Assembly (NCBI GenBank): GCA_052036095.1
Contig: JBPOHA010000056.1
Span: 466 to 64,465, forward strand
Reading direction: 5' to 3'
DNA from: Bacillota bacterium
GTDB taxonomy: Bacteria > Bacillota > Clostridia > TANB77 > CAG-508
Length of the DNA stretch: 64,000 bases
Positions 2,039-62,428 of the stretch are shown here, piece after piece. How positions within the stretch are numbered: position 1 is the stretch's first letter; each line of letters starts with the position of its first letter. The translations under genes and the position numbers were made by a program. Under the pieces are notes generated by a model. It saw only the letters and a program-made list of their open reading frames with translations. It was not told the origin of the DNA and made no database searches.

Positions 2039-4165
2039 ATGTTTAAAGTTTATGAAACAGAGTTAGCTGGAAGAAAACTAACAATTGAATCAGGAAAATT
2101 TGCAAAACAAGCAAATGGAAGTGTTACAGTAAGATATGGAGATACAGTTGTAATGACTAATGTTACAGCTGCTAAAGAAGCCAAAACAGATGTTGACTTT
2201 TTCCCATTATCAGTTGATTATGAAGAAAAATTATATTCTGTTGGAAAAATACCAGGAAGCTTCAATAGAAGAGAAGGAAAACCTGCTGATAAGGCAATAT
2301 TAGTATCAAGAGCAATTGATAGACCAATAAGACCTTTATTCCCAGCAGATTTTAGAAATGATGTATGTATAGTTAATACTGTACTTTCAATGGATAAAGA
2401 TAACAGTCCAGAAGTATGTGCTAATATTGGTACATCAGCTGCACTTGCAATCTCAGACATTCCATGGGGAGGTCCAACAGCAGCAGTTCAAGTTGGATAT
2501 GTTGATGGAAAAATCGTTATCAATCCAACAGCAGAGGAAGAAAAAAATTCTAAATTACGTTTAACTGTTGCAGGTACAGAAGAAGCAATAGCTATGATTG
2601 AAGCAGGAGCTGATGAGATTCCTAATGATTTAATGTTAGAAGCAATTAAAGAAGCTCATGTTGAAATTAAAAAGGTTTGTAAATTTATATCTGATATTAA
2701 ATCAGAAATAGGAAAACCAAAATTTGAATATCAATCATTTTCAGTTAATCCAGATTTTTACAAAGTTGTATGTGAAAGATTAGAAGATGAAATGTACAAT
2801 GATGTTAAAGAAATAGATAAAGTTATAAGAAATAATAATGTTGAAGCAACAACAGAAAAGATAAAAGCAATAGCAGTTGAAATGTTTGGTGAAGATGCTG
2901 AAACAGAGCATGCATTTGATATAGCAACAGCTGTACATGATTTAGAGAAAAAATGTGTTAGAAAAATGATTTTAACAGAACATAAGAGACCAGACGGAAG
3001 AGCAATTGATGAAATAAGACCATTATCAGCAGAAGTTGGTTTATTACCAAGAGTTCATGGAAGTGCTTTATTCTCAAGAGGACAAACTCAAGTATTAACA
3101 GTAGCAACATTAGGAACAAAATCTGATGAGCAATTATTAGATGGTTTAGATGATGATACAGCAAAAAGATATATGCATCAATATAATTTCCCTTCATATA
3201 GTGTTGGAGAAGCTAGAGCTTCAAGAGGACCAGGAAGAAGAGAAATTGGACATGGAGCTTTAGCAGAAAGAGCTTTACTTCCAGTTATCCCATCTGAGGA
3301 AGAATTCCCATATACAATGAGACTTGTTTCAGAAGTATTAGAGTCAAATGGCTCAACTTCACAAGCTAGTATTTGTGGCAGTACATTAGCACTTATGGAT
3401 GCTGGTGTACCTATTAAAAAGCCAGTAGCAGGAATTTCAACTGGATTAATTACAGATTATGATCATCCAGAAAATTATATAGTATTAACTGATATACAAG
3501 ATATTGAAGATTTCTTCGGAGATATGGACTTTAAAGTTGGAGGAACTAAAGACGGAATAACTGCAATTCAAGTTGATACAAAAATCGGTGGATTAAGTTA
3601 TGAAATTATTAAAGAAGCTTTTGAAAAAACAAAGATAGCTCGTGATCATATAATTGATGATGTTATATTAAAAGCTATACCAGAGCCTAGAAAAGAACTT
3701 TCTAAATATGCTCCAAAGATTATTACAATGACTGTTCCAGTAGAGAAGATTAAAGATGTAATTGGTGCTGGTGGAAAAGTAATTAATAAGATTATTGAAG
3801 AAACTGGTGTAAAGATTGACATTGAAGAAGATGGAAGAGTATTTATTTATACTGAAGATATTGAAATGGCTAATAAAGCAAAGAAGATAATTGAAGGTTT
3901 AACTCGTGAAATAGTAGCTGGAGAAATATATGATGGTGTTGTTACTAGAATTACAACATTTGGTGCTTTTGTAGATATTGGAGGAGGAAAAGAAGGATTA
4001 CTTCACATCTCTAAGATATCAAGCAAGAGAGTTGAAAAGGTAGAAGATGTACTTTCAGTAGGAGATGAAGTTAGAGTTAAAGTTTCTGAAATCGATAGCC
4101 AAGGAAGAATAAATCTTAATATGAAAGATTTAGAAGCTAAAGAAACAGATGTAACTAGCAAATAA
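2039..4165 (+). CDS. pnp: Polynucleotide phosphorylase (PNPase)
   Basis: 708 aa with two RNase PH domains, KH and a C-terminal S1 domain (GAFVDIGGGKEGLLHISKIS). Classic rpsO-pnp arrangement with a roughly 500 nt leader. Confidence 0.97.
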   Translation: MFKVYETELAGRKLTIESGKFAKQANGSVTVRYGDTVVMTNVTAAKEAKTDVDFFPLSVDYEEKLYSVGKIPGSFNRREGKPADKAILVSRAIDRPIRPLFPADFRNDVCIVNTVLSMDKDNSPEVCANIGTSAALAISDIPWGGPTAAVQVGYVDGKIVINPTAEEEKNSKLRLTVAGTEEAIAMIEAGADEIPNDLMLEAIKEAHVEIKKVCKFISDIKSEIGKPKFEYQSFSVNPDFYKVVCERLEDEMYNDVKEIDKVIRNNNVEATTEKIKAIAVEMFGEDAETEHAFDIATAVHDLEKKCVRKMILTEHKRPDGRAIDEIRPLSAEVGLLPRVHGSALFSRGQTQVLTVATLGTKSDEQLLDGLDDDTAKRYMHQYNFPSYSVGEARASRGPGRREIGHGALAERALLPVIPSEEEFPYTMRLVSEVLESNGSTSQASICGSTLALMDAGVPIKKPVAGISTGLITDYDHPENYIVLTDIQDIEDFFGDMDFKVGGTKDGITAIQVDTKIGGLSYEIIKEAFEKTKIARDHIIDDVILKAIPEPRKELSKYAPKIITMTVPVEKIKDVIGAGGKVINKIIEETGVKIDIEEDGRVFIYTEDIEMANKAKKIIEGLTREIVAGEIYDGVVTRITTFGAFVDIGGGKEGLLHISKISSKRVEKVEDVLSVGDEVRVKVSEIDSQGRINLNMKDLEAKETDVTSK

Positions 4166-4291
4166 AATTTGGATTATTAACTTTCCTGACAAAGATGTGT
4201 TAGTAACTTCAAATGATGATTATTTTAATACTTGAATTTACTTTTACAATTCACAACCTACAATTACAAAAGTAAATATTTACAATAAGTA

Positions 4292-4320
4292 TTGCAAAAA
4301 GAAAACAGATACTGTAAAAT
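4292..4320 (+). promoter_or_regulatory. Sigma-A type promoter: TTGCAA, 17-nt spacer, TAAAAT
   Basis: Near-consensus -35/-10 with 17-nt spacing. The same 39-nt core GTATTGCAAAAAGAAAACAGATACTGTAAAAT recurs at 59042-59070, and its 5' half at 25366-25389. Confidence 0.6.
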
Positions 4321-4568
4321 AAAAATGTATTAAATCTCTATATAAAAAATATAAAGATGAAATACAACAAGAGAAAAATGATATAGAGAGGAATACAAGA
4401 AGAAAAAACAAAAGTATGCTAAAAAAGAATATAAAAAGTAAAAAGAAGTATACAATAAGCAAAATAACACAAAAAGAAAAAGCAAAAGTAGTGTAAAACA
4501 AAAAGTAAAAAGGCAGAAAAGTAAAAGAAACGAAAAGTTTAACACTAAAAATGAAAGGAGAATATCAA

Positions 4569-5768
4569 ATGAAAAGGATTATAAAAAATGTAAAAGGTAT
4601 CACATTAATAGCTCTTGTTGTAACAATAATAGTATTATTGATATTAGCAGGAGTATCAATCAATATAGCATTTAACACTGGAATAATAAGCAAATCAAAA
4701 AATGCAACAACAAAATATCAAGAAGCAACAGCAAATGAAACAAATAGCTTAAATGAAATAGAAAGTGAAGTAGATAAATTATCAAAAGGAGATAGCAACA
4801 AAATACCAACAGCAGATTTGGGAACATCAAAAAAAGCAAAAACAGTATTTACAACTAAAACAGATGTAACAGATGCATTAGGAAACAAAGCAAGAATTCC
4901 AGTAGGATTTAAGATAGCAGATGATTCAGCAGAAACAATACCAGGAGGAGTAGTAATAGAAGATGTAAGTGCTGGAGATAGCACATCAGTAGGAAATCAA
5001 TTTGTATGGATACCAGTAGGAAAAGAAATAAAAAGTGCAACAGAAACTGTAGATATAGCATTAGGAAGATATAGTTTTGATAGTAATGGAAATGCAACAG
5101 CATGTACAAATACAAGTTATGTAGAAGAAACTGCAACAGAACATAAAACAAGTGGAGATGGAAATACAATAGCAAAAGATATAGAAAAATTTAAACAAAG
5201 TGTATCAGATAATGGAGGATATTATCTAGCAAGATATGAAGCAGGAGTGACAGGATATGATTCTACAGTATCAACAGGCAATAGTAGTGGTGCAGCAAGT
5301 TGGACAGGATATGCAAATGGAAAGCTAACAATAAAATCAAATCAACAAGTATGGAATTATATAACACAAAATAAAGCAGCAGATATAGCAAGAAATATGT
5401 ATAGTGCAAATGTAACAAGTGATTTAGTAAATAGTTATGCATGGGATACAGCAATAGTATATATAGAGAAATGTGGAACAAATGCAAATTATGCAAATCA
5501 AATAGGAAAAGCAACTGATAACAATTTAGCAAATACAGGAATGACTAAATTAAAATCAACAAGTGCAATAGATGCACAATGCAATATATACGATATGGCA
5601 GGAAGTGTATATGAATGGACTACGGAGTCTGGCTCTAACACCCTCTATCGTTGCGTCATTCGTGGAGGCGTTTACTACGACAGCAACTACTTTTCGGCTA
5701 GTCGTAGCGGCGGCGATACGAGCTTTGCTTACGTAAGCATTGGTTTTCGTCCACTTTTATACTTGTAG
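4569..5768 (+). CDS. Pilin-like N-terminus plus C-terminal FGE-sulfatase (SUMF1/C-type-lectin-like) domain protein, paralog 1. The ORF track starts at 4551; the ATG at 4569 is better placed behind GGAG.
   Basis: N-terminus MKRIIKNVKG/ITLIALVVTIIVLLILAGVS resembles a class III (prepilin) signal peptide with E5 replaced by A. C-terminal motifs GRYEAG, SYAWDTA, GSVYEWT, RGGVYYD and a terminal IGFRPLLYL are typical of the FGE-sulfatase fold. Confidence 0.6.
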   Translation: MKRIIKNVKGITLIALVVTIIVLLILAGVSINIAFNTGIISKSKNATTKYQEATANETNSLNEIESEVDKLSKGDSNKIPTADLGTSKKAKTVFTTKTDVTDALGNKARIPVGFKIADDSAETIPGGVVIEDVSAGDSTSVGNQFVWIPVGKEIKSATETVDIALGRYSFDSNGNATACTNTSYVEETATEHKTSGDGNTIAKDIEKFKQSVSDNGGYYLARYEAGVTGYDSTVSTGNSSGAASWTGYANGKLTIKSNQQVWNYITQNKAADIARNMYSANVTSDLVNSYAWDTAIVYIEKCGTNANYANQIGKATDNNLANTGMTKLKSTSAIDAQCNIYDMAGSVYEWTTESGSNTLYRCVIRGGVYYDSNYFSASRSGGDTSFAYVSIGFRPLLYL

Positions 5769-6002
5769 CGCTGAGTCCTGATAATACAATATCGGGAAAT
5801 AGAATTAATAAAGAAAATCGTATGGCTTCCAAAGAGAAGAAGGTAGGAAGAGAATGAGTTCACAGCACCAAAAGATAAGAACCAGTTTAAAAAAATCACA
5901 AGATAAGCAAGAAAATTTTAATATACCTATTGACATTTTAAAAAAATAGTAATCTTAAAAATGTTATACATTTGAAATAAATAAATAAAAAAATATATAT
6001 GA

Positions 6003-6036
6003 AGCTCTGCAATTACTTAAGTTGCAGAGCTTTTAC
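6003..6036. terminator. Bidirectional intrinsic terminator (AGCTCTGCAA..TTGCAGAGCT)
   Basis: 10-bp perfect stem, with a T-run on the + side and an A-run upstream. Confidence 0.6.
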
Positions 6037-6371: not shown

Positions 6372-6488
6372 TTAGCAACCTCCAAATCCAAATCCTTTGC
6401 CTCCGCCGCAGCAACAGCAGATTAATAATAATACTATTATTATACAGCAACAGTCATTGTCTCTTCCACCGCATCTATTTTCTGGCAT
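6372..6488 (-). CDS. Unannotated 38-aa Cys/Gly-rich hydrophobic peptide (MPENRCGGRDNDCCCIIIVLLLICCCCGGGKGFGFGGC)
   Basis: Manual minus-strand translation. AGGAGG lies 8 nt upstream of the ATG, on the complement of 6497-6502. It is below the 60-aa cutoff of the ORF track. TAA stop at 6372-6374. Confidence 0.55.
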   Translation of the reverse strand: MPENRCGGRDNDCCCIIIVLLLICCCCGGGKGFGFGGC

Positions 6489-6538: not shown

Positions 6539-6673
6539 TTAGCAGTTTCCATCGTTTCCACAACATGGTTGTGGTGTTGGCATACAGTCATCATGGCCAC
6601 ATCCGCATCCACAGCAGCATATCAAAACGATAAGGATAATAAACCATAACATTTCGCTGTTTGAACCTCTCAT
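6539..6673 (-). CDS. Unannotated 44-aa Cys/Gly-rich hydrophobic peptide (MRGSNSEMLWFIILIVLICCCGCGCGHDDCMPTPQPCCGNDGNC)
   Basis: Manual minus-strand translation. AGGAGG (complement of 6681-6686) lies 7 nt upstream of the ATG at 6673. Tandem with the 6372-6488 ORF, with a 50-nt spacer carrying the second SD. Confidence 0.55.
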   Translation of the reverse strand: MRGSNSEMLWFIILIVLICCCGCGCGHDDCMPTPQPCCGNDGNC

Positions 6674-6837: not shown

Positions 6838-9069
6838 ATGGGCAAAATTGTATTATTAGATGATTTAACTATAAATCAAATTGCTGCTGGAGAAGTTATT
6901 GAGAGACCAGCATCTGCAGTAAAAGAACTAGTAGAAAACTCGATAGATGCAGGAGCAAAAAATATATCAATAGATATAAAAAATGGTGGAATATCATATA
7001 TACGAATTACAGACGATGGTTCTGGAATCTTAAAAGACGATATGGAAATTGCTTTTGAAAGGCATGCTACAAGCAAAATTAGGAAAGCTGACGATTTAGA
7101 CACAGTTAAATCGATGGGGTTCAGAGGTGAGGCTTTAGCGAGTATTGCAGCAATTGCAAAAGTTGAAATGACATCAAAAGCATTAGGACAAGAAAATGGA
7201 TATACAATTTGCTTAGAAGGCGGAAACATAACTGATCAACATGAAGATGGCTGTGCACAAGGGACAAGTATTACAATAAGAGAGCTATTTTATAATACGC
7301 CAGTTAGATACAAGTTTTTAAAAAAAGATTTTACAGAAACAGGTTATATAGAAGAAACTATTCAAAGAATAGCACTTGCAAATCCTTCAGTTGCTATAAA
7401 ATTAGTTGATACTGGAAAAGTTACATTACAAACAACTGGAAATGGAAAGCTAGAAGATGCTATTTATGCAGTATTTGGTAAAGAAATTACAGAAAATGTA
7501 TTACCAGTAGATTATTCTTACGAAGATTTACATATAAATGGTGTTATTGGAAAACCAATAATTTCACGTTCAAATAGAACAAATCAATTATTCTATGTAA
7601 ATCATAGATTTATCAAAGACAAAACGTTAACTAGCGCAGCAGAGCAGGGATTTAAAGGATTAGTTACAATAGGAAAGCATGGATTTTTAATATTAAATAT
7701 TGATATGGATCCAAAGAAAGTTGATGTAAATGTACACCCAACAAAGCTTGAAGTAAGATTTGAGGAAGAATCTAAAGTTTTCAAGGCAGTATATCATGCA
7801 ATAAAAGAAACTTTACTTAAATCAGACTTAATTTCAAGTCCTGATAAAGATTATAGTGAGTTAACTCCAAATGACATTTTAAGAGATATTAGAAATAACT
7901 CAATAACGAATAATGCAAGGATAAAAGCTTGGGGAATTCAAAAAGCAGAAGAACCTTCTTCTAGTAGCAAAATAATTGAAAAAGAAAATCCAAAAGAAAA
8001 TGAAGAATCTATAAAAGAAAAAGAAGAACTTAATGAGGATTTTGTTGATGCGCAAGATATAATAAAAGAAGATATTGCAAAACATGTACAAGAAATGAAC
8101 AAAATTGACAATGTAACTCCTTTAAAAAATTCTTTAGATACAGATAAATTAGAAGTTTCAGCAGACAAAGAAAATATAGACAATGTAAAAGAAAATGTAG
8201 AAGAAAATGTAGAAGAAGAAGAAAATAATGAAATATCAAATCAAAATAGCAGTGAAGAAAATGTAACTACTAACAAAAATATTAGTGAAGAAAATCAAGT
8301 TTCTAATATAAGTGGTATTGAAGAGAAAGAGCCTTCTTTTGAAGAAATGTATCATAAGCTTTTTGGAAGAGATATAGAAGATGCTAAAAAAGAATATGAA
8401 GAAAAATTAAAAGAAGATGAGGAAAAATATCCTATACAACCTATATCAAATAATGAAGTATCAATGTTTGAAAAAGAAGGAGTAGATAAAAATCCACCTT
8501 ATCAATTTGTTGGAATAGCATTTAAAACATATATTATTTTGACTATAAAAGATGAATTATATATATTAGATCAACACGCAGCTCATGAAAGAATTATGTA
8601 TGAAAAAGTAAAAGAAAATTATTATAGCAAAACAGATAAAGATTCTCAATTGATGTTAATACCAGACATAATTAACTTAAACAATAAAGAAATGGGAATA
8701 TTTAGAGATAATAAAGAAATGTTTAATGAAGCAGGATTTATAGTAGATGAGTTTGGTGAAAATACCGTAAAATTAACTGGAGTTCCAGAATTTTGCTTAG
8801 AATTTGATACTAAAGAAATATTTTTGGAAACATTAGATGAGATAGATACTGTTGCAAGAACTGCAAAACAAGAAATCGAAGATAAATTTTTAGCAACTGT
8901 AGCATGCAAGGCAGCTGTTAAAGCACATATGGCATTATCTAAAGAAGAAGTTGACAGTTTAATGAAACAATTGCTAAGACTTCCAAATCCATTTAGTTGC
9001 CCACATGGAAGGCCTACAGTAATTAAAATGACAAAGAATGATATTGAAAAGAAATTCTCAAGGAGATAA
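6838..9069 (+). CDS. mutL: DNA mismatch repair protein MutL, with a roughly 200-aa acidic/Asn-rich low-complexity linker
   Basis: N-terminal GHKL ATPase motifs (IAAGEVIERPASAVKELVENSIDAGA, DDGSGI). C-terminal dimerisation domain with QHAAHERI. Confidence 0.95.
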   Translation: MGKIVLLDDLTINQIAAGEVIERPASAVKELVENSIDAGAKNISIDIKNGGISYIRITDDGSGILKDDMEIAFERHATSKIRKADDLDTVKSMGFRGEALASIAAIAKVEMTSKALGQENGYTICLEGGNITDQHEDGCAQGTSITIRELFYNTPVRYKFLKKDFTETGYIEETIQRIALANPSVAIKLVDTGKVTLQTTGNGKLEDAIYAVFGKEITENVLPVDYSYEDLHINGVIGKPIISRSNRTNQLFYVNHRFIKDKTLTSAAEQGFKGLVTIGKHGFLILNIDMDPKKVDVNVHPTKLEVRFEEESKVFKAVYHAIKETLLKSDLISSPDKDYSELTPNDILRDIRNNSITNNARIKAWGIQKAEEPSSSSKIIEKENPKENEESIKEKEELNEDFVDAQDIIKEDIAKHVQEMNKIDNVTPLKNSLDTDKLEVSADKENIDNVKENVEENVEEEENNEISNQNSSEENVTTNKNISEENQVSNISGIEEKEPSFEEMYHKLFGRDIEDAKKEYEEKLKEDEEKYPIQPISNNEVSMFEKEGVDKNPPYQFVGIAFKTYIILTIKDELYILDQHAAHERIMYEKVKENYYSKTDKDSQLMLIPDIINLNNKEMGIFRDNKEMFNEAGFIVDEFGENTVKLTGVPEFCLEFDTKEIFLETLDEIDTVARTAKQEIEDKFLATVACKAAVKAHMALSKEEVDSLMKQLLRLPNPFSCPHGRPTVIKMTKNDIEKKFSRR

Positions 9070-17141: not shown

Positions 17142-18734
17142 ATGAAAAAGAAAGATGTAAAAATAATAGACAAGGGAATTGATACAACAGAATTAATGCT
17201 TGCAATGGATGAACTAGAAAAAAATAATGGAATAAAAAAGGCTGACTTAATGGAATCAATTGAAACAGCTTTAGTTGTAGCTTATAAAAGAAACTTTGAT
17301 TCAGTTGATGAAAATGTAAAAGTTGCTATAGACAAAATAGACGGAAAGATGCATGTTTACCAAGAAAAGAATGTTGTAGAGAATGTAGAAGATGACAAAA
17401 AAGAAATGTCATTAGAAGAAGCACAAAAAATTGATAAGAATTATAAAATAGATGATAAAGTCGAAATTGAATTAATGCCTAAAGAATTTGGAAGAATAGC
17501 AGCTCAAACAGCAAAACAAGTTATTACACAAAAAATTAGAGAAATGTCTAGAGATATCATATTTGCAGAATTTGCAGATAAAAAGGGCGAAATTGTTACT
17601 GGATTAGTCCAAAAGGCAGATGGTGGAGCAGTAATATTAGATCTAGGAAAAATCGAAGGAATTATGCCAAAGAAAGAACAAATTCCTACTGAAAGATATA
17701 TGGTAAATGACAAAGTAAAAACTTGTGTAATAAGTGTAGAAAAAGGAATAAAAGGTTCTACTCAAATTATTTTATCTCGTGCAAGTATAGAATTAGTAAG
17801 AAAATTATTTGAGATAGAAATTCCAGAAATATATGAAGGATTAATTGAAATAAAGAGCATTTCACGTGAAGCAGGAGCAAGAAGCAAAGTAGCAGTTTAT
17901 TCACCAAATCCTAATATAGACCCAGTTGGATCATGTGTAGGACAAAAAGGTATTCGTATACAAAATATTATAAATGAATTAAATGGCGAAAAAATTGATG
18001 TTATAGAATGGAATGAAGATCCTTCAATATTTATATCAACAGCTTTATTACCAGCAAAAGTTTTGGCCGTAGATATAAAAGAAGAAGAAAGATTTGCACA
18101 AGTAATAGTTCCAGATGATCAATTATCTCTAGCAATTGGTAAAGGTGGTCAAAATGCTAAATTAGCAGCTAGACTTACTGGATGGAAGATTGATATAAAG
18201 AGTGAATCACAATTTAGACAGTTAATAGAGCAAGCACAAAAAAATAGTGAAGTAGATAGTGAAATAAAAGAAGATTCTAATAAAGATGAAAAAACAGACG
18301 AAAGTGCAAACGAAACAGTATTAGAAGATAAAAAAGCAGAGAAAAAAGTTACGGCTAAGAAAGAAAGCAAAGAATCAGCAGAGAAGAAAGTTACGGCTAA
18401 GAAAGAAAGCAAAGAATCAGCAGAAAAGAAAGCTACAGCAAAAAAAGCAGAGAAGAAAGTTACAACTAAGAAAGAAAGCAAAGAATCAGCAGAAAAGAAA
18501 GCTCCAGCAAAAAAAACAGAAAAGAAAGTTACGGCTAAGAAAGAAAGCAAAGAATCAGCAGAAAAGAAAGCTCCAGCTAAAAAAGAGAGCAAAGAAACAG
18601 CAGAAAAGAAAGCTCCAGCAAAAAAAGCAGAGAAGAAAGTTAAGGCTAAGAAAGAAAGCAAAGAAACAGCAGAAAAGAAAGCTACAGCAAAAAAAGCAGA
18701 AAAGAAAGCTACGGCTAAGAAAGAAAGCAAATAA
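17142..18734 (+). CDS. nusA: Transcription termination/antitermination factor NusA, with a roughly 130-aa C-terminal Lys/Ala-rich tandem-repeat tail
   Basis: NTD, S1 (GEIVTGLVQKADGGAVILDLG) and KH1/KH2 (GSCVGQKGIRIQNI, IGKGGQNAKLAARLTGWKIDI) domains, then KKVTAKKESKESAEKK repeats. Confidence 0.95.
   Translation: MKKKDVKIIDKGIDTTELMLAMDELEKNNGIKKADLMESIETALVVAYKRNFDSVDENVKVAIDKIDGKMHVYQEKNVVENVEDDKKEMSLEEAQKIDKNYKIDDKVEIELMPKEFGRIAAQTAKQVITQKIREMSRDIIFAEFADKKGEIVTGLVQKADGGAVILDLGKIEGIMPKKEQIPTERYMVNDKVKTCVISVEKGIKGSTQIILSRASIELVRKLFEIEIPEIYEGLIEIKSISREAGARSKVAVYSPNPNIDPVGSCVGQKGIRIQNIINELNGEKIDVIEWNEDPSIFISTALLPAKVLAVDIKEEERFAQVIVPDDQLSLAIGKGGQNAKLAARLTGWKIDIKSESQFRQLIEQAQKNSEVDSEIKEDSNKDEKTDESANETVLEDKKAEKKVTAKKESKESAEKKVTAKKESKESAEKKATAKKAEKKVTTKKESKESAEKKAPAKKTEKKVTAKKESKESAEKKAPAKKESKETAEKKAPAKKAEKKVKAKKESKETAEKKATAKKAEKKATAKKESK
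18337..18726 (+). repeat. In-frame tandem repeats, period about 60 nt with 21-nt sub-repeats, encoding the NusA KKxxAKKESKE tail
   Basis: Direct reading of the repeated AAAGTTACGGCTAAGAAAGAAAGCAAAGAATCAGCAGAGAAG units. Confidence 0.85.
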
Positions 18735-18930
18735 TTGTAAGAAAGTCAAAATAAAAATTGGACAATTTGGTATGATTATAAATTAAAATAATTTTTTAGG
18801 CTAATAAATATAAAATGAATTGATTAGGAATAAAGTATTTAATTTATCTATAAAATGATATAGAGAAATATAAGAGGTGTAGTATTGAATAAATTGATAA
18901 TAAAAAATGAGAATAATATTTTAACAGGAG

Positions 18931-25080: not shown

Positions 25081-25290
25081 AAAAAAAGCCCCCATGTTGG
25101 CCGTAAGCTTAAGAATTTTAAGAGCCTGTTTACACAGGTGGGTGTCTTGTTAAATACTTATGGGCTTCTTACTAAGTAAGCATGCACGCCATATTTAAAG
25201 GCAGACTCCCTTTAATCTAAATGTTGGTTCTAAAATCTTAAACTACACGCACCACACAGGGAATAATCTTTACTGTACTTATAGAGTATC
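25081..25290. ncRNA. Candidate structured non-coding RNA: a GC-rich ORF-free island
   Basis: About 45% GC against about 25% in the flanks. No ORF longer than 20 codons on either strand. Several local hairpins (CCUGUuuacaCAGG; CUUACuaaGUAAG) and a possible long-range pairing GGGUGUCU/AGACUCCC. The minus-strand version ends GGGGGC(U)9. Confidence 0.3.
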
Positions 25291-25360: not shown

Positions 25361-25560
25361 AAAAGTATTGCAAAAAGAAAATAGATACTGGGTGCTTATG
25401 ACGGCCTTGGTTTCCGTCCAATTTTATACTTGTAGCGCTGAACCCTAATAATACAATATTTGGAAATAGAATTAAGAAAGGAAATCGTATGGCTTCAAAG
25501 AGAAGAAGGTAGGAAGCGAATGAGTTCACAGTACCAAAAGGTGATATGTTTCACACACTT
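25361..25560 (+). pseudogene. Remnant of an FGE-domain pilin-like gene cassette: promoter 5' half fused to a 16-codon C-terminal fragment (..GAYDGLGFRPILYL*) plus the conserved 3' element
   Basis: 25362-25389 matches 4288-4314 (the -35 and spacer). 25408-25557 is about 90% identical to 5745-5880. The -10 and almost all of the coding sequence are absent. Confidence 0.65.
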
Positions 25561-29894: not shown

Positions 29895-30039
29895 ATTATT
29901 GACTTTGAAAACTCCAAATGCTAAAATGGGATACATAATAAGATATAAATTATATATATAAATAGTAGACTTTGTATATAATATAAATTATGTTGCTATA
30001 AGAAACGAAAAAATTTTATACAATGATAAGAAGAAAAAA

Positions 30040-30186
30040 AGTTAATAATAAAACAAAAATTAATAATAAAACAAAAGTTAATAATAAAACAAAAGTTAAT
30101 AATAAAACGAAAGTTAATAATAAAAGAAAAGTTAATAATAAAACGAAAGTTAATAATAAAACAAAAATTAATAAGAAAAATAAAAA
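30040..30186 (+). repeat. Seven tandem copies of a 21-bp repeat (AAAACAAAAGTTAATAATAAA)
   Basis: Direct reading. In frame with ORF 30023-30379, but the only Shine-Dalgarno (AGGAG 30190-30194) serves the ATG at 30200, so the array is probably 5' non-coding. Confidence 0.75.
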
Positions 30187-30199
30187 AATAGGAGAAAAA

Positions 30200-43374: not shown

Positions 43375-43404
43375 AAAATGCTACAATAATATTTTATAAT
43401 TTTG

Positions 43405-43552
43405 GGATATTATCGATTTTAATTAAGATATTATTGTTTTTAATTAAGATATTATCGATTTTAAATTAAGATATTATTGTTTTTAATTAAGATATTATTG
43501 TTTTTAATTAAGCTATTGTTTTTAATTAAGATATTATCGATTTTAATTAATA
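43405..43552 (+). repeat. About seven tandem 20-24 bp direct repeats (TTTTAATTAAGATATTATYGWT) just downstream of sigK
   Basis: Direct reading. The units contain the TTAATTAA palindrome. Confidence 0.75.
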
Positions 43553-43734
43553 TATAGAATTTAATTTTTTATAAAATATAGATTATTTAAATTATATATG
43601 ATATACTAAGTTAAAATTTAAAGTATAACAATAGAAAAGTTTATTTTTATAAAAGATTTATGTATAATAAGATTTATAAATAATATATCTAAGAAGATTG
43701 TTAATACACATAAGCAATAGAAAGAGGTAGAAAT

Positions 43735-58946: not shown

Positions 58947-59041
58947 ATAAAAAATATATTCCTAGCAACTAAAACTTATGAATAAAATTTGATACTTTAA
59001 TTAAACACATAAACTTTTTAACGCATAATTAAAAAAATGTA

Positions 59042-59070
59042 TTGCAAAAAATAAACAGATAATGTAAAAT
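59042..59070 (+). promoter_or_regulatory. Second copy of the cassette promoter (TTGCAA, 17 nt, TAAAAT)
   Basis: GTATTGCAAAAAATAAACAGATAATGTAAAAT matches the promoter at 4288-4320. Confidence 0.6.
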
Positions 59071-59210
59071 GAAAATAACTAAATCGCTAGAAAAAGATTA
59101 TAGTATAATATGTAAAAATAATCAGAATCAAAGTTAAGAAGTACAGAATAATAGAAGAAATAAAAATATGATGCAAAATATGAAAACTTAAGTTTAAGTG
59201 AGGTAAAAAG

Positions 59211-60365
59211 ATGAATCGAAAGATAGAAAAACTTTGGAAAAGAGAAAGTGGAATTACTATGATTTCACTAGTTATAACAATAATAGTTTTATTAATATTA
59301 GCATCAGTAACTATTAAGGTAACATTAAATACAGAAATAGTAGAAAAGACAAAAAATACAGCAACAGAGTATAAAGAATCTGAAAGTAACCAAACAAATC
59401 AATTGTCAAATTTAAAAGTATATATAGATGCAGATGTAGGATACACAATTAAAGCTACAACTGTCAAAGAAGCAAAGGAAGAAGGAGAATACTATAATAG
59501 TAATACAGAAATAACAGACTCAAGTACAACGCCAGCAAAAATAAAAGTTCCAGCTGGATTTAAAATAGCAAGTGATTCAGCAACAAAAGTAGCAGGAGGA
59601 GTAGTAATAGAAGACACAAATGGTAATCAATATGTATGGATACCATGTACAATAGATGGAGCAAATGGAAGCTTAAAGTATGATAGATATGACTTTCAAA
59701 AGCAAGACGGGTACTATGGTGGATATTCAGAAAATATGTCAAGTGATAATAATGAGCAAAATAGTATAAAAGATAATGGTGGCTATTACATTGGCAGATA
59801 TGAGGCTGGGATAAATTCACAAAGGACAGAATCTGGAGACAAAACAAAAATGACTATGGCTGATTTGGGAGAGGTGCTAGAAAAAAATAATCAGTTCGTA
59901 TATAATTATGTAACAATAGACCAAGCAAAGAAATTAGCAGTGGAAGTATCTAGTCATTATGATTATTCATTAATGAGTGAGTTATGCAATAGTTATGCAT
60001 GGGATACAGCATTAAAATTTATTGATGCAACAGTAGATGGATATTCAACAAATACAACACAAGGAAATTATAATAATACATCATTTACATATACAGATAT
60101 CAATGGAAATACACAAACAAAAGGAACAGGAACGTCAACTTTGATACCTACAGGAAAAACCACATCAGTATGTAATATATATGATATGGGAGGAAATACA
60201 TGGGAGTGGATAACAGAATCTTATGCAAATTCAAGTTCTAAGTATGTTTATCGTGGAGGAAGTATTGATAATAGTTTTTCAAATAATCCTGCGGGATGCA
60301 GAAGTTATGATAATAATACATGCTCTCATTATAACATTGGATTTCGAGTTACTTTATATTTATAA
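59211..60365 (+). CDS. Pilin-like N-terminus plus FGE-sulfatase domain protein, paralog 3
   Basis: N-terminus MNRKIEKLWKRESG/ITMISLVITIIVLLILASVT. Motifs GRYEAG, SYAWDTA, GNTWEWI, RGGSIDN and terminal IGFRVTLYL. A purine-rich leader as for paralog 1. Confidence 0.6.
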   Translation: MNRKIEKLWKRESGITMISLVITIIVLLILASVTIKVTLNTEIVEKTKNTATEYKESESNQTNQLSNLKVYIDADVGYTIKATTVKEAKEEGEYYNSNTEITDSSTTPAKIKVPAGFKIASDSATKVAGGVVIEDTNGNQYVWIPCTIDGANGSLKYDRYDFQKQDGYYGGYSENMSSDNNEQNSIKDNGGYYIGRYEAGINSQRTESGDKTKMTMADLGEVLEKNNQFVYNYVTIDQAKKLAVEVSSHYDYSLMSELCNSYAWDTALKFIDATVDGYSTNTTQGNYNNTSFTYTDINGNTQTKGTGTSTLIPTGKTTSVCNIYDMGGNTWEWITESYANSSSKYVYRGGSIDNSFSNNPAGCRSYDNNTCSHYNIGFRVTLYL

Positions 60366-60400: not shown

Positions 60401-62428
60401 ATGAAGATACAACATTTAGCAGTTATTTTTGTAATAATAATACTTCCTATATCACTGGTGTTATCAATATATACAGGAAATCTTATAAAAGTTTCAAATA
60501 AGCAATCTTCGTATGACACATTATTGCTTAATTCTACTTATGATGCTGTCAGAGCATATCAAATGAATACATTAAATAACAATTATACTGGAGTTAACGA
60601 GTCAAAAATTAGAGATATAAATGCTTCAGTAAATTCATTCTTCAATAGTTTAGCTACAGGTCTTTCTTCAAGCGGATATAGTAAAGATGATTTAAGAACG
60701 TATGTCCCAGCAATGATATATACATTATATGATGGATATTATGTTTATGGATGTTATAAAAATTCAGCCTCGATTTCAAATGGAAAGCCACAGTTTTCAA
60801 CTGATGCTACTCTTAATAGAGATACTGAATATGGTCTTAAATCATATGTATATTATTCTTGCGAATATAAAAATACAGATTATGATATAATTGTTAATTA
60901 TTCACTTGATAATTATATTTCAGTATATGGCACATATACTGAAAATGGAGAAAAAAAGTTTATATCAAAATCAGGATATTATATAGCTGCAGATGGGATA
61001 ACTATTGATAATACAACAAAAACTGTAAAAAAAGATAATAGAATTGTTGCAGAACCTGAAACTTTGGGGGAATATATATCTACTACTGATAATTATTATA
61101 CAATTAGTAATAATCAAAGAATATACCATACAAAAAAGAATGATACTAAATATTATAATTATATTATTTATAATAGTGTAAAATATTATTTTGATGATTA
61201 TATTAAAACTAATCCACCTGCAAGCTACAAAACAGCTATAGGTAACCAAATTCTAAATACAAGTTTCAATAACTCATATGATGGATATCCTGTATTTAGA
61301 TTAGAAAATAATTTACGAGTATATTTAAATAAAAATGAGTTAGATTCAGTTGTTGACTATTTAAATGGAGACCAAACATGGACAACTAATGATTTGGTTA
61401 ATAATAAGGGAACTTATTTTAAAGATATAAATGCATATTATTATTACAAAAATGCAAAAGATTTCAGTGAAAAGTTATACCCAATATTAAGTCAAATAAA
61501 TATATACACATCAGATAAGCAATATAATGATGTTATTCAAACTGATACATATAAGGAAAAATATGTTACACAATTAGGAAGTGATGCAGATACGCATGTA
61601 AAAACATCTTATGATACTGGAAAAATATTTGACTATAAAGAAAGTGGAAATAATCCGGAATTAGAATCTTCATCATTTAACAACCATAGAATTGATGTAA
61701 TAGTAAGTTCTATAGAGTCTAGTCTTGTAACATCAATCAAAAATTTTAATGATTATACAGCAAGCTCATTTGAATATACAATGCCAGTTTTAAGCGAAGA
61801 TGATTGGTATACAATAGCTAACAATATGACAGTTGTTTCTTTTCTACAGGGACTTACAATAGGAAATTATAAATATTATAGCAATTATACTGTTGTTGCA
61901 AATACAAAAAACAATGAGTTCGTATCAAAAGATTCAATATATGTACAAGATGATTATGAGAAAAGTATTGGATCACCACAAGATAGCACACTTGCTGGGG
62001 CTTGGGAAAACTTGTATAAAAATAATATTTTTTCATTCTTTGGAACTCAAACTGAAGCAGAATATCATAACCCAAGATGTAATTTGTATAATACAACAAT
62101 GAATACGAGAATTAATAATTCATCATCTTCACAACAAGAAAAAATAAAAGTAGTAGGATATAAAAATACTGAATATGATAGAGTAAGTTTTACGTATCAA
62201 ATAAAAGATGGAAATACAATAGGTACAGAACAAGTGGAAAATTATTATTTGCAGCCAGGATCTAGCGGTTATGAATGTATAGTTTCGCAAGGAGAAGTAA
62301 ACACAATTACTACCGATGATTTAATTGAAGGAACAAAGAAAGTAAATAGTGAAATTAGCAAAGCATATGTTACAGCACTTGCACGTGAAAGGGCAGCGAT
62401 ATATAGATATTCAAGTAATTTAGATTAA
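60401..62428 (+). CDS. Large signal-anchored N/Y/T-rich extracytoplasmic protein, co-operonic with FGE paralog 3
   Basis: 35-nt gap after the upstream gene, N-terminal TM. 675 aa, no recognisable catalytic motif. Confidence 0.45.
   Translation: MKIQHLAVIFVIIILPISLVLSIYTGNLIKVSNKQSSYDTLLLNSTYDAVRAYQMNTLNNNYTGVNESKIRDINASVNSFFNSLATGLSSSGYSKDDLRTYVPAMIYTLYDGYYVYGCYKNSASISNGKPQFSTDATLNRDTEYGLKSYVYYSCEYKNTDYDIIVNYSLDNYISVYGTYTENGEKKFISKSGYYIAADGITIDNTTKTVKKDNRIVAEPETLGEYISTTDNYYTISNNQRIYHTKKNDTKYYNYIIYNSVKYYFDDYIKTNPPASYKTAIGNQILNTSFNNSYDGYPVFRLENNLRVYLNKNELDSVVDYLNGDQTWTTNDLVNNKGTYFKDINAYYYYKNAKDFSEKLYPILSQINIYTSDKQYNDVIQTDTYKEKYVTQLGSDADTHVKTSYDTGKIFDYKESGNNPELESSSFNNHRIDVIVSSIESSLVTSIKNFNDYTASSFEYTMPVLSEDDWYTIANNMTVVSFLQGLTIGNYKYYSNYTVVANTKNNEFVSKDSIYVQDDYEKSIGSPQDSTLAGAWENLYKNNIFSFFGTQTEAEYHNPRCNLYNTTMNTRINNSSSSQQEKIKVVGYKNTEYDRVSFTYQIKDGNTIGTEQVENYYLQPGSSGYECIVSQGEVNTITTDDLIEGTKKVNSEISKAYVTALARERAAIYRYSSNLD

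What the first reader, a model, noticed from the sequence alone, without database searches (positions are those of the whole stretch)
4283..5880. Cassette 1: conserved promoter, polypurine leader, and a pilin-like protein with a C-terminal FGE-sulfatase domain
The protein starts with a prepilin-like segment, KG/ITLIALVVTIIVLLILAGVS. This is the class III signal-peptide architecture, but with Ala instead of the canonical Glu5. It ends in an FGE-sulfatase (SUMF1/C-type-lectin) fold, with motifs GSVYEWT, RGGVYYD and a terminal GFRPLLYL. FGE-type formylglycine generation needs O2, so in an anaerobic spore-former this fold is more likely a glycan- or ligand-binding module. A pseudopilin-like helix fused to a lectin-like head would be a candidate surface adhesin or minor-pilin tip protein. 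I do not know of a described family with this architecture in Clostridia. The gene has its own near-consensus promoter that is re-used at 59 kb.
Basis: partly seen in the sequence, partly recalled or inferred. Interest (0 to 1): 0.7.

Follow-up and report, generated by a model that had tools for sequence, protein, structure and literature searches.

The report
Retroelement-diversified pilin-like adhesin gene
This gene encodes a pilin-like surface protein whose binding tip has the sequence marks of a diversity-generating retroelement (DGR), a reverse-transcriptase system that rewrites chosen codons, so this gut Clostridia-type bacterium can probably change what the protein binds.

Summary

- **VR signature in the window.** The stretch 5615-5755 is 19% A against 47% in the gene body. 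Its 51% G+C is the window maximum. Its codons end almost only in C or T.
- **Family evidence.** The family has more than 7,500 clusters from gut metagenomes. About 21 positions in the last 57 residues are hypervariable and use the amino-acid set expected from mutated AAY codons.
- **Templates found.** I found the template repeats (TR). They sit in MutS-like/Avd/RT/TR loci in relatives. Cognate TR-VR pairs differ at 15-18 sites per 100 nt, all at template adenines.
- **Gap for the window.** The window holds no RT or TR, and no sampled TR is cognate to its VR. Cassette 1 is therefore a remote target, either still served or now a fossil.
- **Pilin reading.** In a relative, the small pilin beside the prepilin peptidase has the same KGITLIALV... 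N-terminus, with Ala at +5.
- **Extra copy.** A deleted third copy lies at 25363-25540.

This is a known mechanism acting on an uncharacterised kind of target, a modular type IV pilin-like protein.

The parts
4278..4326 (+). Conserved upstream element with promoter-like hexamers: TTGCAA (4292-4297), 17 nt, TAAAAT (4315-4320)
   Evidence: 84% identical to 59028-59076 (D16). Also present up to 'gatactg' at 25363-25390. Promoter scan gives 9 of 12 matches.
4321..4568 (+). Long purine-rich 5' leader ending in the ribosome-binding site AAAGGAG (4554-4560)
   Evidence: 4321-4550 is 77% purine, top 0.8% of 230-nt windows. Partly alignable with the leader of relative L001. Function not established.
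4569..5768 (+). ORF, 399 aa plus stop: pilin-like N-terminus, central domain, C-terminal FGE-sulfatase/C-type-lectin-like domain
   Evidence: Identical to P0001. 35% identical to the paralog at 59211-60365 (E=3e-65).
4569..4673 (+). Class III signal-like segment: basic leader MKRIIKNVK, Gly10, then hydrophobic helix ITLIALVVTIIVLLILAGVSINIAF (Ala at +5)
   Evidence: Read from the sequence. The same N-terminus is on the small operon pilin of L002 and on every target gene seen. Family profile hits Geopilin domain 1 (E=0.0013-0.006) and MshA (E=0.07-0.08). Pfam N_methyl is below threshold.
5499..5750 (+). FGE-sulfatase-like (C-type-lectin-type) domain match
   Evidence: PF03781 E=0.0016-0.0018, 18.4-18.6 bits, below the 23.3-bit cut-off. 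22 of 23 family members match. PDB profile hits 5aoh (E=8e-5), PorK/GldK and SUMF2.
5615..5755 (+). DGR variable repeat (VR); the 5' limit is approximate
   Evidence: A 19.1% against 47.1% in the gene body (Fisher p=1e-10). G+C 51%, the window maximum. Third codon positions C19 T18 G3 A3. Aligns with the family's hypervariable columns. Homologous to TRs from relatives, but the best has 11 non-A mismatches per 100 nt, so none is cognate.
5756..5780 (+). VR-specific 3' element (candidate IMH, the homing-initiation site): TTTATACTTGTAG plus CGCTGAGTCCTG. TR-VR homology ends just before it.
   Evidence: TRs read ...CCACT/CTAATA... and VRs read ...CCACT/TTTATAYTTGTAG. After the stop codon, NNCTGRNNNCTG recurs in most lineages; that part was not in the search pattern.
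5776..5797 (+). Small inverted repeat (TCCTGATA / TATCGGGA), a candidate target-site hairpin
   Evidence: Predicted by DNA folding, but no better than shuffled sequence (z=0.01). Inconclusive.
5769..5880 (+). Conserved 3' flank shared with the partial copy and with L001
   Evidence: 5726-5874 matches 25393-25540 at 86-96% (D8 and D17). Also alignable with L001.
6001..6036 (+). Intrinsic terminator that closes the cassette 1 transcription unit
   Evidence: 14-bp stem, -22.2 kcal/mol, z=-6.4, 0 of 200 shuffles as stable, followed by UUUU.
25363..25540 (+). Deleted third copy: upstream element (to 25390) joined directly to the last ~45 nt of a VR (25391-25435, stop at 25433-25435) and the conserved 3' flank (25436-25540)
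   Evidence: It differs from cassette 1 at variable codons and also at two non-A third positions, read.
59028..60365 (+). Cassette 2: the same upstream element (59028-59076) and a 384-aa paralog (59211-60365) without VR marks
   Evidence: PF03781 32.1 bits. Tail A content 34%, not depleted. Its 3' end has diverged from the VR-specific element.

Best explanation
Cassette 1 encodes a modular surface protein with three parts: a type IV pilin-type N-terminal signal and helix, a central domain, and a C-terminal FGE-sulfatase/C-type-lectin-like binding domain. The last ~47 codons of that domain are a DGR variable repeat.

In this clade of AT-rich gut Clostridia, a chromosomal DGR carries a MutS-like gene in some loci (seen in L031), Avd, a ~337-aa reverse transcriptase (RT), a ~110-nt template repeat (TR) just downstream of the RT, and a small OB-fold-like ORF. 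The proposed mechanism is that the TR is transcribed and reverse-transcribed with random misincorporation opposite adenines. The resulting cDNA then replaces the VR of several target genes scattered around the chromosome. Scaffold codons avoid A and so stay fixed. AAY codons become any of about 15 amino acids, which re-tunes the binding surface.

The window copy is one such remote target. Its DGR core lies outside these 64 kb or has been lost.

Shown here: the sequence signature in the window, and TR-VR pairs with adenine-only differences plus RT and Avd in relatives. Inferred: that the window's own genome still has a matching DGR, that the protein is cleaved by a prepilin peptidase and displayed on a type IV filament, and that it acts as an adhesin.
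For: 1. Window VR 5615-5755: A 19% against 47% in the body (p=1e-10). G+C 51%, the maximum in the window. Codon third positions are almost all C or T.
2. In 118 homologs, about 21 columns with 2-3 bits of entropy alternate with invariant columns in the last 57 residues. Their repertoire is essentially the NNY set, with K, E, Q, M and W rare.
3. A TR-specific pattern found 41 metagenome loci. Most are AAY-rich copies of the VR with an RT-like ORF directly upstream.
4. Cognate pairs show 0 non-A mismatches against 15-18 A-site mismatches per 100 nt. Several loci hold VR and TR together (display).
5. Pfam confirms RVT_1 (7.7e-18), bAvd (1.9e-16 and 2e-18) and MutS_I (2.6e-5, above its cut-off).
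6. Targets are dispersed among housekeeping genes, with 2-3 or more per genome.
7. Pilin evidence: the operon pilin next to the prepilin peptidase and T2SSE/T2SSF genes in L002 has the same N-terminus. The N-terminus is invariant across targets. The PDB profile hits pilin alpha-1 helices.
8. Remote targets, the MutS-like accessory gene and the avd-RT-TR order are all documented DGR features (PMC5758913).
Against: - No TR, RT or Avd lies in the window.
- The best sampled TR has 11 non-A mismatches per 100 nt against the window VR, so activity on this copy is not shown.
- The genome also holds a deleted copy and a paralog without VR marks, which is compatible with decay.
- VR alleles are fairly stable in the family: one VR sits on 34 different backbones.
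- The target-site hairpin is not better than chance.
- For the pilin reading: Glu5 is absent, N_methyl is below threshold, TIGR02532 gives no hit, and the window has no pilus machinery.
- Both AlphaFold models failed (pLDDT 41.5 and 44.1), so no fold could be checked by structure.
Confidence: 0.78

Rival explanations
1. Fossil target. The gene descends from a DGR target, but this genome has lost its DGR core or its TR no longer matches. The VR is then frozen, and the protein is a static surface protein that keeps only the compositional scar.
For: No RT or TR lies in 64 kb. No cognate TR turned up among 41 sampled. A deleted copy lies at 25363-25540 and a paralog lacks VR marks. The nearest relative L001 has K and E codons at variable positions and a more A-rich tail. 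VR alleles are often stable.
Against: The VR is intact and in frame, still strongly A-depleted, and uses NNY codons almost exclusively; ordinary drift in a 26% G+C genome should erode this. The VR-specific 3' element is intact. Remote targets normally lie far from the core (PMC5758913), and DGR cores tend to fall on short contigs that binning loses.
Confidence: 0.35
2. Membrane-anchored receptor rather than a pilin. The N-terminal hydrophobic segment would be an uncleaved signal-anchor holding a DGR-diversified binding domain at the cell surface, with no assembly into a filament.
For: Ala replaces Glu5. N_methyl is below threshold and NCBIfam gives no prepilin hit. Most cellular DGR targets are described as membrane-anchored, with an N-terminal transmembrane segment or signal peptide (PMC8144416). 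Most family copies are not next to pilus genes.
Against: The same 30-residue N-terminus is on a 121-aa protein sitting immediately upstream of the prepilin peptidase in a pilus operon. A Gly follows the short basic leader in all copies. The family profile matches pilin alpha-1 helices.
Confidence: 0.3
3. The G+C-rich tail is a recombination or horizontal-transfer mosaic, or reflects ordinary diversifying selection, with no retroelement involved.
For: The composition changes abruptly at the 3' end. A repeat of the 3' end lies elsewhere in the window.
Against: Variation is confined to fixed codons, with conserved third positions and an NNY repertoire. A-rich templates next to RT genes explain every difference in relatives. 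Scaffold codons avoid A specifically.
Confidence: 0.03
4. A working formylglycine-generating enzyme or related oxidase.
For: Only the weak PF03781 similarity.
Against: The match covers only the C-terminal part of the model, and that part is hypervariable. The protein has a pilin or anchor N-terminus. DGR variable proteins use this fold as a binding scaffold (PMC8144416).
Confidence: 0.02

Closest known systems
DGR variable proteins with a C-type-lectin/FGE-sulfatase fold, and the Treponema DGR with its remote targets (TvpA, Bordetella phage Mtd and Legionella LdtA are recalled from my own knowledge)
   Same: The VR is at the 3' end of the gene in an FGE-sulfatase-type fold. There are adenine-specific TR-VR differences, an Avd plus RT core, and several targets far from the core. 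The Treponema DGR has seven non-adjacent targets, and a MutS-like accessory gene occurs in 16 known DGRs (PMC5758913).
   Different: Here the N-terminus is type IV pilin-like; TvpA and LdtA are lipoproteins (my own knowledge). The TR lies directly downstream of the RT and is followed by a small OB-fold-like ORF. The host clade is uncultured, very AT-rich gut Clostridia.
DGR-diversified type V pilus tip adhesins of Bacteroides (bioRxiv 10.1101/2024.11.15.621889)
   Same: A DGR re-tunes the binding head of a pilus subunit in gut bacteria, with a C-type-lectin head on a pilin module.
   Different: That is a different pilus system: type V, with lipoprotein precursors and strand-exchange assembly in a diderm, often carried on conjugative elements or prophages. 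Here the system is type IV-like in a monoderm, chromosomal, with dispersed targets. That paper does not mention type IV pili or Firmicutes.
Modular type IV pilins, e.g. Streptococcus sanguinis PilB (vWA module) and PilC (lectin module) (PMC8179133)
   Same: A pilin module at the N-terminus carries a grafted ligand-binding module, probably displayed at the filament tip. The class is widespread in monoderms.
   Different: Those pilins have canonical class III signals and static modules. Neither 'sulfatase' nor 'C-type lectin' occurs in that paper's main text. This family lacks Glu5, and its pilin fold beyond alpha-1 is unverified.
Tip minor pseudopilins that lack Glu5 (GspK type)
   Same: They lack the conserved Glu5 and sit at the tip carrying a bulky extra domain (the GspK tip location is noted in PMC8179133; the lack of Glu5 is my own knowledge).
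   Different: In this clade the small operon pilin also has Ala5, so the lack of Glu5 is a clade trait and not a marker of tip position. There is no sequence homology to GspK.
Formylglycine-generating enzyme (SUMF1) and PorK/GldK
   Same: They share the fold family at low sequence similarity.
   Different: There is no evidence of catalysis. The matched region is the hypervariable binding surface.

Membership tests
DGR target gene (variable protein) | Variable repeat at the 3' end of an ORF, within a C-type-lectin/FGE-sulfatase-type fold | tested here: met
   The VR at 5615-5755 ends 13 nt before the end of the stop codon. PF03781 is weak for this protein but found in 22 of 23 family members.
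DGR target gene (variable protein) | A cognate template repeat that differs from the VR only at template adenines | tested here: inconclusive
   Met for relatives: 0 non-A against 15-18 A-site mismatches per 100 nt. Not met for the window copy: no TR in 64 kb, and the best sampled TR has 11 non-A mismatches.
DGR target gene (variable protein) | DGR-type reverse transcriptase (and usually Avd) in the same genome | tested here: inconclusive
   Relatives have RVT_1 at 7.7e-18 with YxDD and [ILV]GxxxSQ motifs, and bAvd at 2e-18. None is in the window.
DGR target gene (variable protein) | Adenine avoidance in scaffold codons, with variable codons of the NNY type | tested here: met
   A is 19% against 47% in the body. 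Third positions are C19 T18 G3 A3 in the VR against A219 T101 G15 C13 in the body. The family repertoire is the NNY set.
DGR target gene (variable protein) | VR-specific initiation element (IMH) at the VR's 3' end, plus a downstream hairpin | tested here: inconclusive
   A VR-specific conserved 3' element is present and differs from the TR end; part of that conservation was imposed by my search pattern. The hairpin is no better than shuffles.
Type IV pilin (class III signal peptide) | Short basic leader ending in Gly, followed by a ~20-residue hydrophobic helix | tested here: met
   MKRIIKNVK-G-ITLIALVVTIIVLLILAGVS. Invariant across the family. Profile hits to pilin alpha-1 helices at E=0.0013-0.08.
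Type IV pilin (class III signal peptide) | Glu at position +5 of the mature protein | tested here: not met
   Ala at +5. The small operon pilin of L002 also has Ala.
Type IV pilin (class III signal peptide) | Significant match to the N-terminal methylation motif models (PF07963, TIGR02532) | tested here: not met
   PF07963 E=0.046, 13.7 bits against a 21.2-bit cut-off. No TIGR02532 hit at E<=1.
Type IV pilin (class III signal peptide) | Prepilin peptidase and assembly ATPase/platform genes in the genome | tested here: inconclusive
   Present beside a family member in relative L002: A24_N_bact, two T2SSE, T2SSF. Absent from the window. The rest of the genome was not available.
Type IV pilin (class III signal peptide) | Cleavage after Gly, N-methylation and incorporation into filaments | not testable with these tools
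   Needs mass spectrometry or filament purification.
FGE-sulfatase (PF03781) enzymes | Pfam match above the gathering score | tested here: not met
   18.4-18.6 bits against 23.3 for this protein. The paralog at 59211 passes with 32.1 bits.
FGE-sulfatase (PF03781) enzymes | Catalytic cysteine pair and copper site of formylglycine-generating enzymes | not tested
   Not examined. The aligned region is the hypervariable one, and both structure models were unusable.

The most novel reading that the evidence does not exclude
A chromosomal DGR in a widespread clade of small, AT-rich human-gut Clostridia acts in trans on a dispersed multi-copy family of modular type IV pilins that naturally lack Glu5. 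This would give a monoderm bacterium filament-displayed adhesins whose specificity can be rewritten. It would be the first coupling of DGR hypermutation to type IV filaments, and the type IV counterpart of the Bacteroides type V tip-adhesin system.
Probability: 0.45. Interest if true: 0.7.

Novelty: new variant of a known kind. Interest (0 to 1): 0.55.

Why it matters
DGRs are the only known natural system of targeted protein hypermutation in prokaryotes, and the human gut holds the greatest known density of them (bioRxiv 10.1101/2024.11.15.621889). Metagenome surveys state that they cannot see DGRs that act on remote targets (PMC8144416). The family found here is of that kind: more than 7,500 target clusters and more than 3,300 RT clusters, with targets scattered among housekeeping genes.

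If the N-terminus is a working pilin signal, these are programmable adhesins on type IV filaments of monoderm gut bacteria. That links two fields that have not been joined. My literature searches found no paper combining DGR with prepilin or type IV pilin. One survey lists a 'G-type pilin' domain on VR-bearing proteins without comment (PMC11661182).

There is also a practical use. The A-poor, G+C-rich 3' tail with the FRPLLYL end, and the conserved TR flanks, are simple markers for annotating such targets and cores in AT-rich genomes.

Tried and rejected
- **Is the 25.4-kb repeat the TR?** No. It is the upstream element joined to the last ~45 nt of a VR plus the 3' flank. It sits next to truB and a 6S RNA, with no RT.
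- **TR in the window.** A sliding comparison that tolerates A mismatches found none. No ORF in the window or in the first 27 loci has RT motifs.
- **VR 3'-end pattern on species genomes.** It returned only VR ends. TRs diverge from VRs just before that element, so the pattern could not catch them.
- **TR pattern on viral contigs.** No hits.
- **The window genome's own DGR.** Look-ups of two window proteins found no record, and cluster tables gave no accession. The only NCBI-only RT homolog (P0211) comes from another metagenome and is not cognate, with 28 non-A mismatches.
- **Structure prediction.** Two runs, with 23 and 117 sequences, gave mean pLDDT 41.5 and 44.1. No fold search was run on them because the matches would be meaningless.
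- **Target-site hairpin.** Not distinguishable from shuffled sequence.
- **A conserved partner gene downstream.** The 675-aa ORF after cassette 2 and the 628-aa ORF after the L001 gene are unrelated.
- **NCBIfam naming.** Nothing useful.
Full report
**1. What is at the coordinates**

An ORF runs from 4551 to 5768 on the + strand. The likely start is ATG 4569, 8 nt after AAAGGAG. This gives 399 aa, identical to database protein P0001. The gene lies between pnp (2039-4165) and mutL (6838-9069) in a stretch of ordinary core genes of a spore-forming, 26% G+C Clostridia-type organism. Those genes include miaA, sepF, divIVA, rimP, nusA, rbfA, truB, whiA, cdaA, mutS2, RNase R, gerA-type genes and spoIIP.

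- a conserved upstream element with TTGCAA-17-TAAAAT;
- a 230-nt leader that is 77% purine;
- the N-terminus MKRIIKNVK-G-ITLIALVVTIIVLLILAGVS;
- the C-terminal motifs GSVYEWT, RGGVYYD and GFRPLLYL.

A strong intrinsic terminator at 6001-6036 closes the transcription unit.

**2.

From about 5615 the gene changes composition abruptly. A falls from 47% to 19% (Fisher p=1e-10). G+C rises to 51%, the highest of any 141-nt stretch in the 64 kb. Codon third positions switch from mostly A or T to almost only C or T.

A homolog search returned more than 7,500 clusters, mostly singletons of ~455 aa from gut metagenomes. In an alignment of 118 of them, about 21 columns with 2-3 bits of entropy alternate with invariant columns, all within the last 57 residues. 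The amino acids at those columns are essentially those that NNY codons encode. This is the pattern left by a diversity-generating retroelement (DGR), in which adenines of AAY codons in a template are mutagenised while scaffold codons avoid A.

**3. Finding the template**

The window holds no template repeat (TR) and no reverse transcriptase (RT).

The conserved 3' end of the VR, used as a pattern on species-representative genomes, hit 23 loci. They come from uncultured gut Clostridia such as Clostridium sp. CAG:343, Clostridium sp. 28_17 and several human and mouse MAGs. All 23 were ends of target genes, often several per genome, and some were tandem.

I then inferred the template by taking invariant bases as they are and variable bases as A. 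I searched MGNGGNGGYAAYTAYAAYAAYAGYAAY. It gave nothing in viral contigs and 41 loci in metagenomes. Most of these are AAY-rich copies of the VR with a ~337-aa RT-like ORF directly upstream.

Cognate pairs are unambiguous. VRs of L002-L005, L009 and L017, and VRs lying in the same loci as their TR (L031, L037, L050, L056, L059), differ from the TR at 15-18 positions per 100 nt. All of these are template adenines, with no other mismatches (display).

TR and VR diverge right after ...CGYCCACT. The VR continues TTTATAYTTGTAG-NNCTGRNNNCTG, while the TR continues CTAATA... followed by a conserved hairpin-forming stretch.

**4. The DGR core**

In L031 and L052 the order is: [target with VR] - [MutS-domain-I-like ORF, seen in L031] - Avd - RT - TR - small OB-fold-like ORF. 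Pfam gives RVT_1 at 7.7e-18, bAvd at 1.9e-16 and 2e-18, MutS_I at 2.6e-5 (above its cut-off), and only a weak SSB/OB match. L052's core sits among tgt and yajC, so it is chromosomal. No viral hit was found.

RT homologs number 3,388 at E<=1e-30, mostly on contigs of 1-5 kb. This suggests these loci break assemblies.

MutS-like accessory genes, the avd-RT-TR order and remote targets are all documented (PMC5758913). Large metagenome surveys state that they miss remote-target DGRs (PMC8144416).

**5. Status of the window copy**

Its VR is homologous to the sampled TRs, but none is cognate: the best has 11 non-A and 25 A-site mismatches per 100 nt. I could not reach the rest of the genome, and one candidate RT contig proved unrelated. 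Whether this copy is still being rewritten is therefore open.

For activity: the VR is intact and strongly A-depleted, and the VR-specific 3' element is intact.

For decay: the same window holds a deleted copy at 25363-25540, which is the upstream element joined to the last ~45 nt of a VR plus the 3' flank. It also holds a 35%-identical paralog at 59211-60365 with no VR marks.

In the family, VR alleles are fairly stable. There are 45 distinct VRs in 118 sequences, and one VR is shared by 34 backbones. Pairs with at least 98% backbone identity share the VR 59% of the time, whereas pairs with 90-95% backbone identity match at only 23% of the hypervariable positions. Diversification therefore looks episodic.

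**6. The pilin question**

HMM support is weak. N_methyl scores E=0.046, below threshold, and TIGR02532 gives no hit. Glu5 is replaced by Ala.

In L002 a family member lies next to a type IV pilus operon with a prepilin peptidase, two T2SSE genes and a T2SSF gene. The 121-aa pilin gene just upstream of the peptidase begins MKNQKGITLIALVITIIVLLILAGVTIAMLTGENGIL, the same N-terminus as the DGR targets. The motif is invariant in all targets across species. A family profile matches the alpha-1 helices of Geopilin (E=0.0013-0.006) and MshA (E=0.07-0.08).

So Ala5 is a trait of this clade's pilins. The protein is best read as a modular type IV pilin in the sense of the S. sanguinis PilB/PilC work (PMC8179133). 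An uncleaved membrane anchor remains a fair alternative.

The window has no pilus machinery.

**7. The C-terminal fold**

PF03781 is below threshold for this protein (18.4 bits against 23.3) but matches 22 of 23 family members and passes in the paralog. PDB profile hits are to FGE-like domains: 5aoh at 8e-5, PorK/GldK, and SUMF2. Both AlphaFold runs failed (pLDDT 41.5 and 44.1), so the fold rests on sequence profiles and on the general rule that DGR VRs lie in C-type-lectin folds (PMC8144416).

**8. Comparison and novelty**

The mechanism is a standard DGR. The closest functional precedent is DGR diversification of type V pilus tip adhesins in Bacteroides (bioRxiv 10.1101/2024.11.15.621889). 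That paper does not mention type IV pili or Firmicutes.

No paper in the library combines DGR with prepilin or type IV pilin. The supplementary tables of the largest survey hold no pilin annotation. One survey lists a 'G-type pilin' domain among rare VR-bearing domains without analysis (PMC11661182).

I rate this a new variant of a known kind. It is of moderate interest, mainly because the family is abundant in the human gut and invisible to standard DGR surveys.

**9. Unexplained points**

- Alignment column 425, the residue before EWTTE, is hypervariable (W, F, S, R, Y...) although it lies upstream of where TR-VR homology begins in the cognate pair shown.
- The 110-nt 3' flank is better conserved between the window and L001 than the coding sequence is.
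- The role of the purine-rich leader is unknown.

Noticed in passing
window 25085-25265 (-): 6S RNA gene (Rfam RF00013, 110 bits, full length), immediately beside the deleted cassette copy and downstream of truB.
   Followed up: partly
window 6372-6488 (-) and 6539-6673 (-): Two small ORFs (38 and 44 aa) encode Cys/Gly-rich peptides with a hydrophobic core (e.g. MRGSNSEMLWFIILIVLICCCGCGCGHDDCMPTPQPCCGNDGNC). They lie between cassette 1 and mutL and resemble small sporulation-type peptides.
   Followed up: no
window 43385-43577: Eight tandem copies of a ~21-nt unit (GATATTATCGATTTTAATTAA) in the gap between a sigma-factor gene and the dUTPase gene. Function unknown.
   Followed up: no
window 30002-30199: About nine tandem 18-nt units (AAAGTTAATAATAAAACA) upstream of the cdaA-like gene. 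They would encode a KVNNKT repeat if translated.
   Followed up: no
window 18261-18800: Eleven overlapping copies of a 27/42-nt periodic repeat at the 3' end of the nusA ORF, giving a low-complexity protein tail. MutL and other housekeeping proteins here also carry long N/K/E-rich inserts.
   Followed up: no
window 60401-62428 (+): A 675-aa ORF directly after cassette 2 has an N-terminal hydrophobic segment and no Pfam or NCBIfam match. It is not homologous to the ORF that follows the L001 gene.
   Followed up: partly
L052 10955-11215 (-); L031 7085-7372 (-); L045 2760-3005 (-): A small (81-95 aa) OB-fold/SSB-like ORF follows the TR in three DGR cores. Pfam SSB matches are weak (E=0.0015-0.01 for the two tested, L052 and L031). 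It may be an unrecognised DGR accessory gene.
   Followed up: partly
L028-L068, about 10-60 nt downstream of each TR: The stretch after the TR is highly conserved (CTCTAATA...GAGATTATATATTTTAAGGAATATATACAGTAAAAGTATTAG) and contains an inverted repeat. It probably corresponds to the structured spacer RNA that DGR RTs need for priming.
   Followed up: no
L002 10001-11371 and L003 10001-11371: The same 456-aa protein, with ~200 nt upstream and ~100 nt downstream, is found in two unrelated chromosomal contexts: next to a pilus operon, and next to pheST and a MutS_I fragment. The whole cassette therefore appears to be duplicated or mobile.
   Followed up: partly
L003/L004 11521-11829: A 102-aa MutS_I-domain ORF lies directly downstream of a remote target gene, far from any RT within 10 kb. 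It echoes the MutS-like accessory gene of the DGR core.
   Followed up: no
L013 3841-7792: Three tandem family genes in one mouse-gut MAG. Only the last keeps the canonical FRPILYL end; the other two end in FRTVLYL and SRITLYIR, suggesting graded decay or alternative VR types.
   Followed up: no
alignment A5, column 425: One hypervariable residue (W/F/S/R/Y/L/M/Q), six codons upstream of where TR-VR homology starts, uses codons outside the NNY set.
   Followed up: no
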